This document shows positions 28,301-40,300 of a DNA stretch of 64,000 bases, piece by piece. The stretch spans positions 2,448,749-2,512,748 of the forward strand of contig NW_018480078.1 in the NCBI RefSeq assembly GCF_002113885.1, read 5' to 3'. This DNA comes from Mizuhopecten yessoensis. Its lineage: Eukaryota. Each line of letters starts with the position of its first letter. Position 1 is the first letter of the stretch. A program made the position numbers.

Positions 28301-31300
28301 TATCATTTTAGCCCCGATTGTATACCTACAGCATGTAACTGTACCAACAATAATAGTCCATGCATGCTTGGGAGAGGGAGTGTTCTATCCTGAAGATGGC
28401 AGCTGCTATTCTGTATGTTCTCCTTTGGAAACTTGTTGTGTTCAATTCTTTCCATATTTCGTGATTCTGAAGAAGTGATTTGCTTACCACCGAAGGAAAA
28501 TGAAGCCAAATGAGATAACAGAATGCAGAATGTAAGATATTATCAAGGATTTTATTACCCAAGATGGGCTGCAAAGATTTTCAATGATAGTCATAATAGT
28601 CATAACATCTAGTAATGTATTAATATAAACATAATTGTGATTAAATGATTTTTATAACCTTATCCCTGTCTATAACATGAACTGAAATCACTTATATTTC
28701 ACAAAAAGAAAAATGACTTTGTTTCTCATCAAGTAATTTGCAAGTATTATGAATCCGAAGACAATAACATTTATTAAATCATATTTAAAATACATGTTTA
28801 TGAAATAATTGATCTAATTTACGGAAAGTATATCGTCAAATATAAGTGATCAACAGGACCTGTAGACAAAAAAGATGGACACAAAGAAAAAATGCAAATA
28901 CAGATAAATAAAATGTGCTTACATGTGTAAATATCTGAAGCAAAATATTGATGTGGTACATACAACCTATGAGCATACCAGTTTTTGTATATATTATACT
29001 CGTCCTCATTTTACAGAGTGTTGACGAAAATGTCATTTTATAATATAAAGTTAGTTCAATGTTGAAATGAAATTTAACTTGAAATTATAAAGATCTTTCG
29101 TGCCTATCCATTACATGTATATTGGAAACTAGCCAATAAGGTTTCACTGCTGTTCAAATCAGTGTATATTTATAAGGTATGTAACAAATTCAAGTCAAGT
29201 TAGTCTATAATATGAAAACAGAAGATTTTTGTGAATGTCAAAAAGTCAGAAATAAACATGAATATTAGAAACTACAGTCCATGTGCTTTTTGAATGGAAG
29301 AAGTCAAAATATAACGATTCTATTAATATTACCAGTAAATAGTTTATGTGTACACAGAGGCTTAATAATACATAATTAATACATGCACAGGGACTTGTTC
29401 CAGTTAACAGTATACATGAACACAGGAGCTTGTTCTAGTTAACAGTATACATAAACACATGGGCTTGTTCCAGTAATTTTGAACACAGGGGGTTGATAAA
29501 ATAAAAAGGACTTACACATGGACTTGTTCTAGTAAACAGTATACATAAACACAGGGGATTGTTCGTGTTATTGGTGTACACAGGAGATTATTCCTGTAAG
29601 AGTTAATGTGTACAGAGGTTTGATAAAGTAAATAGTACATGCACAGGGGCTTGTTCCAATTAACAGTAAACTCAAACACAGGGGCTTGTTCCTGTTTACA
29701 GTATACGTATACACCGGAGCTTGTTCCAGTAAACATAATACATCAACACAGGGACTTGTTCCAAAAAAAAGTGTTAAACATGAGCTTCTTCCAGTAAATG
29801 GCATACCTAAACAGAGCTTGACCTAAGTTGTTGCAGGTAAATCCTTCATTCTTGTGTGAATAAAGCACTATTTTTTTTTATAAACATGTCATAATACTGT
29901 TTAACCCTTTCACCACTGAAGACCATAATGGACTCATCCAGATCAATGCATGGTAGAGTCTGCTAAAGTTACATAGGGGTGAAACGGTTATGTTTGATTT
30001 GCATGCATGTATGTTCATGCCTTTTAACATTTTTCAAAATGTTTGATCTGTAGCCCAACATGACTGGTATATATGGGACCATTAAATGCTAGCTCTATTA
30101 CTGATTCTGTTCTGGGTTTTTTTAATTGGTGTTCATTTACAAATCAAAATCATATGTTACAAATGCTTGAAATTAACATCCAAAACCTTGTCATTTGGTC
30201 TGCTAGAAAATAATGTTAAATATTATTTTCATATCCAAAATGCCTCATCTGGAATGAAAACTAGATAAAATTAGTTCTTAAGAGAAAACAACGACCATCT
30301 GCACAATACAAGCATTGTGGAATCGTTTATAATACAGTAGACACATAAACAACACCTAAAAACTATACAAATCGGACGATATTCCAGAGTCAGAACTCGA
30401 AACACCTGACCTAAGCCTGCAACACACATCTAACATTGTTCTCCCTGATTTAAAAGCTTATATATGACAGGATTTCAGCATGTTTACATATTCCAGTATA
30501 CAGCTGGGCAGTAAAGGACACTAGAGAACACTAATTTGGCCGATTCCTGATGGGGTCACCCGGAGTGGACCTTTAATCTGCAAGTGTTGAGTGACCCGAG
30601 GTTTAATGAAACAATTCCAATTAAAAAACGTGTTCAAAAACGTATCATGCAGAGAAGTACAAATATGTATCATTTTGAATCAATGGGCATTCATTTAAAT
30701 TCCATACCTAATCATTTCTTAATGTTTTGAAAAATAAATAAACAATTTTGACTAATCATACAACAAACGTAATTAAGACATAACTTTCTTTCCAAAGAAT
30801 GAAAAAAAACCTATTAAAATATCACCAATATATGACAATAACCTGTGAATCCCGCCCATCTGTACAGAAGTCAAGTAACATGATAAACACATGACTCAGC
30901 CTCCATCTGACCATTACAGTACAGGTATATATAGGATGACGTGGTAGCCTTTCAAGAAGATTAGAATTATACATATAGTGACACTGTTATGCCCAGCATA
31001 CAGTTTAGATGAAGCTTGTTGAATGTCTGTACATCATCATTCAATAACATGTTCACTACCAAGCATAACATATAATTACTGAGTTGTTATAGCAGCACAC
31101 AGCCACCACGCTTCTTTTTCTTCGTTTGAAGAGCTGCTCTGGTGGCTGTTTCAAATACTCCCCGCACCCCCTCTTTGGTTTTAGCCGAGCATTCCAGGTA
31201 TCCAAATGCATTGATTTTTTCGGAGGTGGCTCTTCCTTCTTCTGGGCGGACAGGTTCTTGTTTCATCTTCATTAGCTCTCGTTTGGTCTGGTCGTCATTT

Positions 31301-37300: not shown

Positions 37301-40300
37301 TGCATCAAAAAAGTTCCATCCCCCTGTTTTTTTCATAGCTCCAGTCAATGACTTGTATGGAAAACATACTACCTGCCTTGCTACTGGACCGACAAAAACA
37401 AATATTTAACAGATTCCTGTCTATGTATAGTCAAGTCTTTAATTTGTTCATGATTATTTATGAAATTTTTTAAGACAAGATCTCCAACTTGCACAGGTTT
37501 GTTAGTTTGTTTTAAAAGAACACTAATTTGGTCTGTTTTCTGAGTCTTTCACACGAAAAGCTGCAGAACATTCTTTATGTGTACACACAGTTTGGGAATG
37601 TACTGCCATGACATTGCTATTCATACAAGACTCGCCACAGATATCGAGGGGTGCCACATAGAAAGGTCCATAAAGTATAGTCTATAGCAGTCGACACATT
37701 TTTCTATTCTTCTTCTTCTTTTGTAGAGCTGCTCTGGTGGCTGTTTCAAATACTTCTCTTACTCCCTCCTTGGTTTTAGCTGAGCATTCTAGGTATCCGA
37801 AAGCGTTGATTTTTTCTGCAATACCTCTTGCATCCTCTACTTTGACTGGTTCTTGTTTCATCTTCATTAGCTCTCGTTTGGTCTGGTCGTCATTTCTTAG
37901 ATCTTTTTTATTTCCTACAAGAATTATTGGAACACATGGACAAAAGTGCTTCACTTCAGGTGTCCATTTTTCTGGGATGTTCTCCAAACTGTCAGGGCTG
38001 TCTATGGAAAAGCACATGAGAATGACGTCAGTATCTGGGTAGGACAGGGGACGTAATCTGTCGTAGTCTTCCTGGCCAGCAGTATCCCAAAGGGCTAGTT
38101 CAACCTACAATTTAGGAACAATACATAATGAAATTATTTGGATTGAACTATAATATGGCCAACAGTACCACTTACAGTGGTGATATTAATTTTACTATAT
38201 TATCAAGCAACATCAATTATCTTATTTGATCATTTGAAAAAAAAAAAAAAAATGCTAGTAAAACAAGGGTCGTGTCTCAATTATGAAAAGATATTTTTAA
38301 AGTTAATTCATTTTCCATTTTGAAATTTAATTAAGATACAATGCAAGCGATTATCAAATAGGATGTTCCTTTAGATAAGATTGTTAGATAATAACCATGC
38401 TTCATGCAGTATGTGAATTTCTATGCAACAAGAGAGATTGCGCTGGTTACAGATATTTGATGCGGATATCATTCCAGATTGACAATTGAATCCTTCAGTC
38501 GCTGCTGTTAAGCTATTAACCAATGGGTCAGTAGTTCTTCTAATCTAGATGATCATTCTGTAACCTACTGTAACAACTGGATTAATCAACACTATCTATT
38601 TTGATGCTAAGAGTTCTTTGTCACGATCAAGGTTATATAAACAATGGAGTACCCCAGCAAGTGGCATCAATAAATATGAGTAAATGACCAGACTCTTTCT
38701 ATAATCTGTATGACAACATGTATTGCAGGCAAGTGGACAACTGTGAAACACTATATATGTACCAGTGACTGTTTTGTAGTTGCTTTCTGAACATGATTGA
38801 ACTAAAACACCTTAATTTCATAAAGTTTAGTTGGAATCTATGGACAGTTGACATGCATCTGGTATAGTTTTCCTCGTCAAAAAAGTTATTTTTCAACAAA
38901 TCTTCTTTAGGAGTTTAACTACAGCACTATAAGTCGTTGTAAATGTGGATAATTAATTAATTGATGGTGTAGATCTATGATTTCAGATTGATTTATCAAA
39001 TTAATTGATGGGTGTAGATATATGATTGATTATCAAATTAATTGATGGTGTAGATCTATGATATCAGATTGATTTGAACTACTGCCTCAAGTACAACTCA
39101 GACAATTAATTTATGTCTCAATTTTCAACATAATTTACCAATATTTTTCATATGAATTCTTAAGTCATTCCAAAAGCCCAAATTTTGGGTCTCACCTTTT
39201 GATGCATTATATTATCAATGCTTTATCTGTAAAAGCATATTTTTTTTTAATTGAATGCTATTGAATGAATTTATGTCAGCATTATGATACAGTTAAAATT
39301 TCACAAACTTTAAAAGTTGTTGTACATGTATTTGTAGACAAGCCACAAATTTACAGCAAGGTTTGAACATCAAAACTACTCCTTTAGCATGAAACCACAT
39401 TATTAGTAAAAACAACGGAAAACATGGCATAATTTGTGTGAACTCCACATGAAGGACTTACAATCTGGAGGTTTAATAGTTTCAACAAGAAGCAGTTTCC
39501 CTTTAATAAAGAGATACCAATGAAGAACAATATTATCTTTGTACACATGCAATACTCGTGGTCATCATTCCACTACCAGTCAGTCGAGTCAGAAGTTAGA
39601 TGTGGTGGAGGGGTTTGGGAGGGTTCCTGAAACTGCTCATGCACACACAAACTGCACAACGGTTCACACAAGGCAAGTCTGTAGTGCTCGGAACATCTAA
39701 CCGATTCAGGCAAACAGCATTAGTCAATGTTTTTTACTACTGATGAACACAATCGGGCAGCATCCTAATATGAATGAAACTTACCCGTACTCTTAAATGA
39801 TTTGGAGTTGTCTTACTTCCATGGAAAAGTCTTGTGCGAAAACGATGTGTTCAATTTATGAACACCAGTATGATTGAATAGACCTTCACAGATGGGCTGG
39901 AAACTTGTGCAAACCTAAAAAGTCTTTATTACTGAATTTCAGTACTAAAGGTTAATGCAAACCTAGGCGTCCTGCTGAAGTTACCAGACAGTGAACAGAC
40001 AGTACTTTCCGATCCAGATACTAATCATTACCTGGGTACATTTATAACTATTATACCACAATATTTTCTATTCAATACATGCAAGCAAATACTTCTGTAG
40101 CAACGTCATATTAGCTTTGATGAGGTTTTATCTTTCAATAATCTCACTTTGCATATGCAATTTATGTATGTTTGAACAGAGAACTACAAAATTAGGCCTA
40201 GGGGGGAACTTTCATCCCGACCAAATAATGGTTTAGCATAAAGGATATGTTCAAAATAAGAAAATGTTGAAACAACTTTTTAAATGACTCTTTTTGCACA

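What the first reader, a model, noticed from the sequence alone, without database searches (positions are those of the whole stretch)
31253..38104. Apparent gene-conversion tract between Rho exons B and C
Seen: the first 257 nt or so of C (31253-31509) and B (37848-38104) differ at only about 4 positions by my count (3 silent plus AGT/TGT, S/C109). Their 3' parts show many silent and replacement differences, and the introns are unrelated immediately past the AG. Inference: an old duplication with recent exon-limited homogenisation. The switch II core would evolve in concert while the region after EPV and the tail stay distinct.
Basis: partly seen in the sequence, partly recalled or inferred. 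Interest (0 to 1): 0.65.

Follow-up and report, generated by a model that had tools for sequence, protein, structure and literature searches.

The report
Gene conversion between scallop Rho exons
Two of three alternative last exons of a scallop Rho GTPase gene have had their first 257 bases made nearly identical, most likely by copying from one exon to the other, which is a clear but ordinary case of gene conversion.

Summary
On the minus strand one Rho gene has a single 5' coding exon (43175-43020, residues 1-52). It has three alternative terminal exons, A (41743-41318), B (38104-37682) and C (31509-31087), each encoding residue 53 to the stop. B and C differ at 4 of the first 257 nt (3 silent, plus TGT/AGT at residue 109) and at 42 of the last 166 nt. 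dS is about 0.08 in the 5' part and 0.6-0.8 in the 3' part. A maximum chi-squared test puts the break after nt 257 (0 of 10000 permutations; silent codons only, 17 of 10000). Introns and 3' UTRs are no more alike than chance. Exon A is saturated at silent sites against both B and C, so the 5' part is not under general silent-site constraint.

The locus is from a pectinid scallop. Argopecten irradians has annotated A, B and C isoforms, and its B exon keeps NDENTKK where the window's B carries C's NDDQTKR. The best reading is an old exon duplication followed by a later, short C-to-B conversion tract.

This is a new example of a known process. Raw reads and related genomes could not be checked.

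The parts
44858..44888 (-). Alternative first coding exon (MSLLCCSRNN, then a GT donor) that adds an N-terminal extension.
   Evidence: A six-frame motif search found it. The same N-terminus occurs in Mizuhopecten yessoensis P0300.
43020..43175 (-). Shared 5' coding exon, Met1 to Gln52 (P-loop and switch I). It ends in phase 0 before a GT donor. An acceptor at about 43196 allows the N-terminal extension.
   Evidence: tblastn with P0004 gives 53 of 53 identical residues and finds only one copy in the window. The sequence was read. It matches Pfam Ras profile positions 1-47.
41318..41743 (-). Terminal exon A: residues 53-193 plus stop, tail ending CKIL. It is the oldest of the three copies.
   Evidence: It matches Pfam Ras positions 48-159. 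Its 76-residue tail region is 93% identical to Azumapecten farreri Rho and 78% to a Mytilus californianus isoform.
37682..38104 (-). Terminal exon B: residues 53-192 plus stop, tail ending CRLL. It is the inferred recipient of the conversion.
   Evidence: The B-type counterpart is Argopecten irradians isoform X2.
37848..38104 (-). Homogenised tract in exon B (exon nt 1-257, residues 53-138).
   Evidence: It has 4 differences from C in 257 nt, and the breakpoint falls after nt 257.
31087..31509 (-). Terminal exon C: residues 53-192 plus stop, tail ending CVLL. It is the inferred donor.
   Evidence: Its protein is identical (0 of 140 differences) to the C-type exon of M. yessoensis P0300 and Argopecten X3 P0297.
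31253..31509 (-). Homogenised tract in exon C (exon nt 1-257).

Best explanation
This is one Rho (RhoA/Rho1-type) gene of a pectinid scallop. A single 5' coding exon (residues 1-52) is spliced to one of three tandemly duplicated terminal exons, A, B or C, each encoding residue 53 to the CaaL tail.

The B/C duplication is old. The flanks can no longer be aligned, the 3' part has dS of about 0.6-0.8, and both exon types exist in Argopecten. Later, in the lineage of this genome, a short non-allelic gene conversion copied the 5' part of exon C into exon B, which lies 6.6 kb away in direct orientation. The tract is at most the first 257 nt, covering residues 53-138 with switch II and the Rho insert helix.

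The tract is bounded 5' by the end of homology at the acceptor. It is bounded 3' by a very divergent patch, with 15 differences in nt 258-288. About 4 substitutions have accumulated since the event, one of them Ser109 to Cys in B. The result is three isoforms, of which B and C share an almost identical core and differ in residues 140-148, 169 and the polybasic/CaaL tail.

Shown here: the gene layout, the mosaic similarity with its breakpoint, the unrelated flanks, and the B and C types in a second genus. Inferred: the repair mechanism (double-strand-break repair by strand invasion and copying), the C-to-B direction, the timing, and actual use of each exon in mRNA.
For: - Layout: there are three exon copies and one 5' exon. 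Acceptors, the donor and the reading phase were read directly. Searched exon by exon against Pfam, the 5' exon covers Ras profile positions 1-47 and the terminal exons cover 48-160.
- Mosaic similarity: B and C differ at 4 of 257 nt and then at 42 of 166 nt. dS is 0.08 against 0.58-0.82. Silent differences occur in 4 of 85 same-residue codons in the 5' part and 13 of 41 in the 3' part (Fisher p 8.5e-5).
- Breakpoint tests: 0 of 10000 permutations for all sites and 17 of 10000 for silent codons.
- Scaling to exon A: silent differences are 4 (B-C) against 43 (A-B) in the 5' part and 13 against 24 in the 3' part (p 0.005). For all nucleotides the counts are 4 against 55 and 42 against 74 (p 1.9e-5).
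- Flanks are at chance level.
- Second species: Argopecten irradians X2 is B-type (tail MCRLL) with NDENTKK, and X3 is C-type with NDDQTKR. The window's B has NDDQTKR. NDDQ occurs in 0 of the 207 cluster representatives held at that point. Later fetches showed it in the scallop C exons.
- Trees: the 5' part puts window B with the C exons (98/92). The 3' part puts window B with Argopecten B (75/51), and holding it with C gives p-AU 0.053.
Against: - GC3 is not raised in the tract: 36 and 39 of 86 codons in B and C, against 36 of 86 in A. The GC-bias signature reported for repeated conversion is therefore absent, although a single event need not leave one.
- The protein trees have little power. 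In the 5' part the AU test does not reject window B grouping with Argopecten B (p 0.317). In the 3' part the B+B grouping is weak (75/51).
- The difference between Argopecten B and the window's B could instead come from an A-to-B conversion in Argopecten, so the protein data alone do not fix the lineage or direction.
- No DNA from related species and no reads were available. The exact 111-112-residue ORFs of the three exons, read from the first internal Met, were not found in the protein collection (0 of 3). There is therefore no independent sighting of exon B.
Confidence: 0.8

Rival explanations
1. The exon was duplicated recently as a whole, and the 3' part of one copy then diverged quickly under positive or relaxed selection. 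No conversion took place.
For: The 3' part holds many replacements (dN 0.19 against 0.005 in the 5' part). Exon B also changes fast between genera, with 9 of 54 residues differing in the 3' part.
Against: Silent divergence is also high in the 3' part (13 of 41 same-residue codons, dS 0.58-0.82). A recent duplication would leave alignable flanks, yet the intron and 3' UTR are at chance level right up to the exon edges. A B-type exon with the MCRLL tail already exists in Argopecten.
Confidence: 0.04
2. Purifying selection acts on the nucleotide sequence of the 5' part (splicing enhancers, RNA structure or codon usage) and keeps B and C alike without any transfer.
For: The tract starts at the splice acceptor, where exonic splicing signals are expected (inference only; no call supports it directly).
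Against: Exon A, spliced to the same donor, differs from B at 43 and from C at 44 of 81 same-residue codons in the same region, and NG86 dS is saturated. Argopecten B differs from C at 3 residues inside the tract.
Confidence: 0.04
3. The pattern is an assembly or polishing artefact. Reads from one copy were used to correct the other, so the true copies are more divergent in the 5' part.
For: The window comes from a draft-type assembly with two N runs and many minisatellites. There was no independent sighting of exon B.
Against: Four differences remain inside the tract, and the copies lie 6.6 kb apart in unique flanks. The break coincides with the start of a strongly divergent coding patch rather than an arbitrary position. 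The C exon protein equals the annotated proteins of two scallop genera.
Confidence: 0.07
4. Conversion is real but its history differs from the best explanation. Either B was the donor, or the NDENTKK of Argopecten B results from an A-to-B conversion in Argopecten and the window's tract is older than assumed.
For: Exon A reads NDENTKR, close to Argopecten B's NDENTKK. The 5' AU test does not reject window B grouping with Argopecten B (p 0.317).
Against: The window's C is identical in protein to the C exons of two other genera, so C has not taken up foreign residues. dS of 0.08 in the tract is about a tenth of the 3' value, which points to a late event.
Confidence: 0.05

Closest known systems
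Gene conversion between the duplicated alternative terminal exons 26a and 26b of salamander Nav1.4 (Gendreau et al. 2021, PMC8476164; passages read)
   Same: A 3'-terminal coding exon is duplicated in tandem, and both copies are used as alternative last exons. GENECONV detected short non-allelic conversion tracts between the copies (56 and 77 bp in their table), while the rest of each exon stays divergent.
   Different: The gene is different (a sodium channel). In the newts the tract carries adaptive toxin-resistance residues. Here the tract is longer (up to 257 nt), covers the conserved GTPase core, and shows no sign of adaptive content. Transcripts were shown in the salamanders but not here.
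Regional gene conversion among protocadherin variable exons (fugu: Yu et al. 2007, PMC1852091, passages read; Noonan et al. 2004, seen only in that paper's reference list)
   Same: Tandem alternative exons have one part homogenised at silent sites (over 99% identity) and another part kept divergent. The argument from synonymous sites is the same.
   Different: Those are variable first exons in large arrays, converted repeatedly, with raised GC3 in the converted parts. Here there are three terminal exons, apparently one or a few events, and no rise in GC3.
Bivalve Rho genes as described by Li et al. 2015 (PMC4669188; passages read)
   Same: The gene plan matches: scallop Rho has 3 exons and encodes 192-193 residues. 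[quoted passage not shown]
   Different: The text holds 0 occurrences of 'alternative splic' and 0 of 'gene conversion'. CfRho (193 aa, P0208) corresponds to the A-type exon here. Shared-5'-exon isoforms are not described there. Its supplements could not be seen.
Vertebrate Cdc42 isoforms made from alternative terminal exons (recalled; not checked by any search)
   Same: A Rho-family GTPase uses alternative last exons that change the C-terminal membrane-targeting tail.
   Different: In Cdc42 only about the last ten residues differ. Here each alternative exon encodes 140-141 of about 192 residues, including switch II and the insert helix.

Membership tests
Rho subfamily small GTPase (RhoA/Rho1 type) | A Ras-family GTPase domain covered in full by the exons. 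| tested here: met
   The 5' exon matches Pfam PF00071 positions 1-47 (E 3.1e-13). Exons A, B and C match positions 48-159/160 (E about 1e-33).
Rho subfamily small GTPase (RhoA/Rho1 type) | Closest solved relatives are RhoA, B or C rather than Rac or Cdc42, with the Rho insert region present. | tested here: met
   Exon B scores E 1.9e-75 against RhoA chains (residues 53-188, aligned without gaps through the insert region). It scores about 1e-44 against Rac1 and Cdc42.
Rho subfamily small GTPase (RhoA/Rho1 type) | A C-terminal polybasic stretch and a CaaX box. | tested here: met
   The tails end [12 protein letters not shown] (A), [12 protein letters not shown] (B) and [11 protein letters not shown] (C). 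That a final Leu directs geranylgeranylation is recalled knowledge, not tested here.
Alternative terminal exons from tandem exon duplication | One shared upstream exon, and homologous copies in the same phase, each with its own acceptor and stop codon. | tested here: met
   The window holds a single 5' coding exon and three copies, each starting GTx after AG in phase 0 and each with a stop codon.
Alternative terminal exons from tandem exon duplication | Transcripts that join the shared exon to each copy. | not testable with these tools
   No RNA data were available. Indirect support comes from NCBI-annotated isoforms X1-X5 of Argopecten irradians on one contig, which carry A-, B- and C-type ends.
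Non-allelic (ectopic) gene conversion tract | Mosaic similarity between paralogues, with a significant breakpoint that is also seen at silent sites. | tested here: met
   (0 of 10000 permutations; silent codons only, 17 of 10000).
Non-allelic (ectopic) gene conversion tract | Phylogenetic incongruence between the tract and the rest of the exon. | tested here: inconclusive
   The protein trees go the predicted way (5' part: B with C, 98/92; 3' part: B with Argopecten B, 75/51). The AU tests give p 0.317 and 0.053. No nucleotide data from other species were available.
Non-allelic (ectopic) gene conversion tract | Raised GC3 in the converted part (GC-biased conversion). | tested here: not met
   GC3 is 36 and 39 of 86 codons in B and C, against 36 of 86 in A. 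This feature is reported for repeated conversion and is not required for a single event.

The most novel reading that the evidence does not exclude
The three-exon Rho locus may be a conserved way for lophotrochozoans to make RhoA/B/C-like diversity from one gene. Recurrent short conversions would keep the effector-binding core (switch II and insert helix) of the isoforms identical, while selection holds residues 140-148 and the lipid-anchor tail apart.

Two observations hint that this recurs. Isoforms with different ends are annotated in Mytilus, Argopecten, Lingula, Octopus and Littorina. An unnamed record (P0021) is identical to Mytilus galloprovincialis X4 over 131 exon residues but has a different tail.
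Probability: 0.25. Interest if true: 0.5.

Novelty: new member of a known kind. Interest (0 to 1): 0.3.

Why it matters
The result matters mainly for annotation and phylogeny. Rho 'paralogues' or isoforms in molluscs cannot be dated from whole-exon Ks, because parts of the exons have different histories. Scallop Rho sequences published as orthologues may in fact be different alternative exons. The locus is also a compact example of how conversion can be confined by the limits of surviving homology. It leaves two isoforms with the same GTPase core but different tails, which could be used to test what the tails alone do.

Tried and rejected
- Search for a B-type counterpart using only the B tail. 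The best match was 82% over 57 residues, no better than generic Rho, because the scallop isoforms were hidden inside a 90% cluster. They were found only by listing cluster members.
- Exact look-up of the three exon ORFs, each read from its first internal Met. 0 of 3 were in the collection, so there was no independent sighting.
- GC3 as a conversion signature showed no rise.
- Unequal crossing-over producing a hybrid exon was rejected, because it would leave recently duplicated flanks and none are seen.
- Separate genes for B and C were rejected, because the window holds only one copy of the 5' coding exon.
- Conversion involving exon A gave only marginal fragment scores: A-B 484 of 10000 and A-C 235 of 10000 permutations when mismatches were allowed, and 7031 and 1565 of 10000 without mismatches. 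This was not pursued.
- Literature searches for Rho alternative or mutually exclusive exons in molluscs or scallops listed nothing that describes this locus plan. Only titles and abstract starts were seen, except for PMC4669188, where passages were read.
- The joined exon1+exonA/B/C proteins were never built or searched. All searches were made exon by exon.
- Genome DNA of other scallops, metagenome and viral collections, and paper supplements were not available.
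Full report
**What is at the locus.** The two stretches lie on the minus strand. Translated, both give the part of a Rho GTPase from Val53 to a CaaL end and a stop codon.

- A tblastn search of the window with these translations finds three copies and no more: A (41743-41318, 141 residues, ending CKIL), B (38104-37682, 140 residues, ending CRLL) and C (31509-31087, 140 residues, ending CVLL).
- Using a full-length relative from the protein search (P0004, Mytilus galloprovincialis isoform X4), tblastn finds one 5' coding exon at 43175-43020. 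It encodes Met1-Gln52, is 53 of 53 identical to that relative, and ends in phase 0 before a GT donor.
- Each of the three copies starts GTx right after an AG acceptor.
- Searched exon by exon against Pfam, the 5' exon covers Ras-family profile positions 1-47 and each terminal exon covers positions 48-159/160.
- Alignment to solved RhoA chains fixes the numbering: exon residue 1 is RhoA residue 53.

The locus is therefore one Rho gene with three alternative terminal exons. I did not build or search the joined exon models.

**The observation.** It is confirmed as written.

- In the first 257 nt, B and C differ at exon nt 72, 111, 169 and 177. Three changes are silent, and one is TGT/AGT (Cys/Ser at residue 109).
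- The last 166 nt hold 42 differences.
- Exon A differs from B and from C at 55 of the first 257 nt, and at 74 (B) and 70 (C) positions in the rest.
- blastn finds B-C similarity only inside the coding exon (31112-31511 against 37707-38106).
- The last 100 nt of the two introns match in register at 25 positions. Gapped alignment scores for 300 nt on each side fall below the shuffle means.

**Is it more than chance or constraint?**

- Nei-Gojobori dS between B and C is 0.08 in codons 1-86 and 0.82 in codons 87-140 (0.07 and 0.58 by LWL85). dN is 0.005 and 0.19.
- Sliding windows rise from dS 0.05-0.13 to 0.5-1.4 at about codon 80.
- Among codons that encode the same residue, 4 of 85 differ silently in the 5' part and 13 of 41 in the 3' part (Fisher p 8.5e-5).
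- Because that split was chosen after looking at the data, I ran a maximum chi-squared test. The best break falls after nt 257, with 0 of 10000 permutations as extreme. For silent codons only, the break falls after codon 85, with 17 of 10000.
- A GENECONV-style fragment score for B-C (nt 3-243, mismatches allowed) was reached by 0 of 10000 permutations.
- The 5' part is not generally constrained at silent sites. A differs from B at 43 of 81 same-residue codons there, and dS is saturated.
- Scaled to A, the B-C deficit in the 5' part remains (silent p 0.005; all sites p 1.9e-5).

**Related species.**

- The A tail is 93% identical to Azumapecten farreri Rho, 86% to an Argopecten irradians isoform and 78% to a Mytilus californianus isoform.
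- Listing cluster members brought out five Argopecten irradians isoforms on one contig, and a Mizuhopecten yessoensis protein.
- The window's C exon is identical in protein to the C-type end of M. yessoensis P0300 and of Argopecten X3 (0 of 140 differences).
- The window also holds the short upstream exon MSLLCCSRNN of P0300.
- The window therefore comes from a pectinid scallop, either M. yessoensis or something very close to it. It is not human.
- Argopecten X2 is B-type, sharing Lys181 and the MCRLL end, so B and C were already separate before these genera split.
- Inside the tract, Argopecten B reads NDENTKK, the state also seen in A exons and other molluscs. All C exons and the window's B read NDDQTKR.
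- None of the 207 cluster representatives held at that point had NDDQ.

**Trees on the protein alignment.** I used 16 rows. One row, the oyster fragment P0316, was dropped because it lacks the first 29 columns.

- In the 5' part, window B sits with the three C rows (98/92). The AU test does not reject window B with Argopecten B (p 0.317), which reflects low power.
- In the 3' part, window B is sister to Argopecten B (75/51). Holding it with the C rows costs 14.5 log-likelihood units (p-AU 0.053).
- The A-type exons of three scallops and Mytilus form a well supported group (98/95), so the split of A from B and C is older still.

**Best reading.** An old tandem exon duplication was followed by a late, short non-allelic conversion.

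- C was most likely the donor and B the recipient, because C has kept the protein seen in two other genera.
- The tract covers at most exon nt 1-257 (residues 53-138: switch II, the following strands and helices, and the Rho insert helix).
- Its 5' edge coincides with the end of any homology.
- Its 3' edge coincides with the most divergent patch, which has 15 differences in nt 258-288. The longest identical run after the tract is 30 nt.
- This is what homology-dependent repair would give, but the mechanism is inferred.
- The Cys at residue 109 of B is absent from Argopecten B and from all C exons. It is best read as a change that arose after the event.

**What speaks against this reading, and what stays open.**

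- GC3 is not raised in the tract.
- The protein trees are weak.
- The NDENTKK of Argopecten B could come from an A-to-B transfer in that lineage.
- No reads, no RNA data and no genome DNA of other scallops could be examined.
- The exact exon ORFs were not found in the protein collection (0 of 3), so an assembly or polishing artefact cannot be excluded.
- Metagenome and viral collections and paper supplements were closed.

**Comparison with what is known.**

- Conversion between duplicated alternative terminal exons is described for salamander Nav1.4 exons 26a and 26b (PMC8476164, passages read).
- Regional conversion that homogenises one part of tandem alternative exons is described for protocadherin clusters (PMC1852091, passages read).
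- A survey of bivalve Rho genes reports scallop Rho with 3 exons and 192-193 residues, and a tandem Rho pair in oyster with Ks 1.53. Its text holds no mention of alternative splicing or gene conversion (PMC4669188, passages read).
- Searches for Rho alternative exons in molluscs or scallops listed nothing on this locus plan (listings only).
- The finding is therefore a new example of a known process, well supported within the window, and of modest interest.

Noticed in passing
window 44858-44888 (-) with the acceptor near 43196 (-): A short upstream coding exon (MSLLCCSRNN, followed by a GT donor) would add an N-terminal extension ending ..DFDVRDM before Met1. The same extension is in M. yessoensis P0300. 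Similar Cys-containing extensions occur in the Argopecten, Mytilus and Octopus isoforms.
   Followed up: partly
proteins P0004 and P0021 (not in the window): The unnamed record P0021 is identical to Mytilus galloprovincialis isoform X4 over exon residues 2-132, including the NDENIKRDL seen only in those rows. It ends NKNIKCVML instead of KKGGCIML. This may be a second pair of terminal exons homogenised except for the tail.
   Followed up: no
window 14086-17463, 47771-50632, 1343-2307, 12451-14200, 23920-24954: The window is rich in minisatellites. There is a 70-bp array of about 48 units, a 28-bp array of 102 copies, a 57-bp array of 17 copies, and others.
   Followed up: no
window 18659-19231 (+): An open frame matches the metallo-beta-lactamase fold (Pfam Lactamase_B_2, E 2.6e-15). 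It is probably an exon of a neighbouring gene and lies just before the N run at 19658-20621, which was left untouched.
   Followed up: no
literature, PMC4669188: The published scallop pair CfRho (193 aa) and PyRho (192 aa; gene 20.7 kb against 4.3 kb) is treated as orthologous. CfRho (P0208) is A-type. The lengths suggest that PyRho uses a distal exon (B or C), so the two may be different isoforms of the same gene plan.
   Followed up: partly
window 34839-34912: A 74-nt near-perfect palindrome (92% self-complementary) lies in the intron between exons B and C.
   Followed up: no
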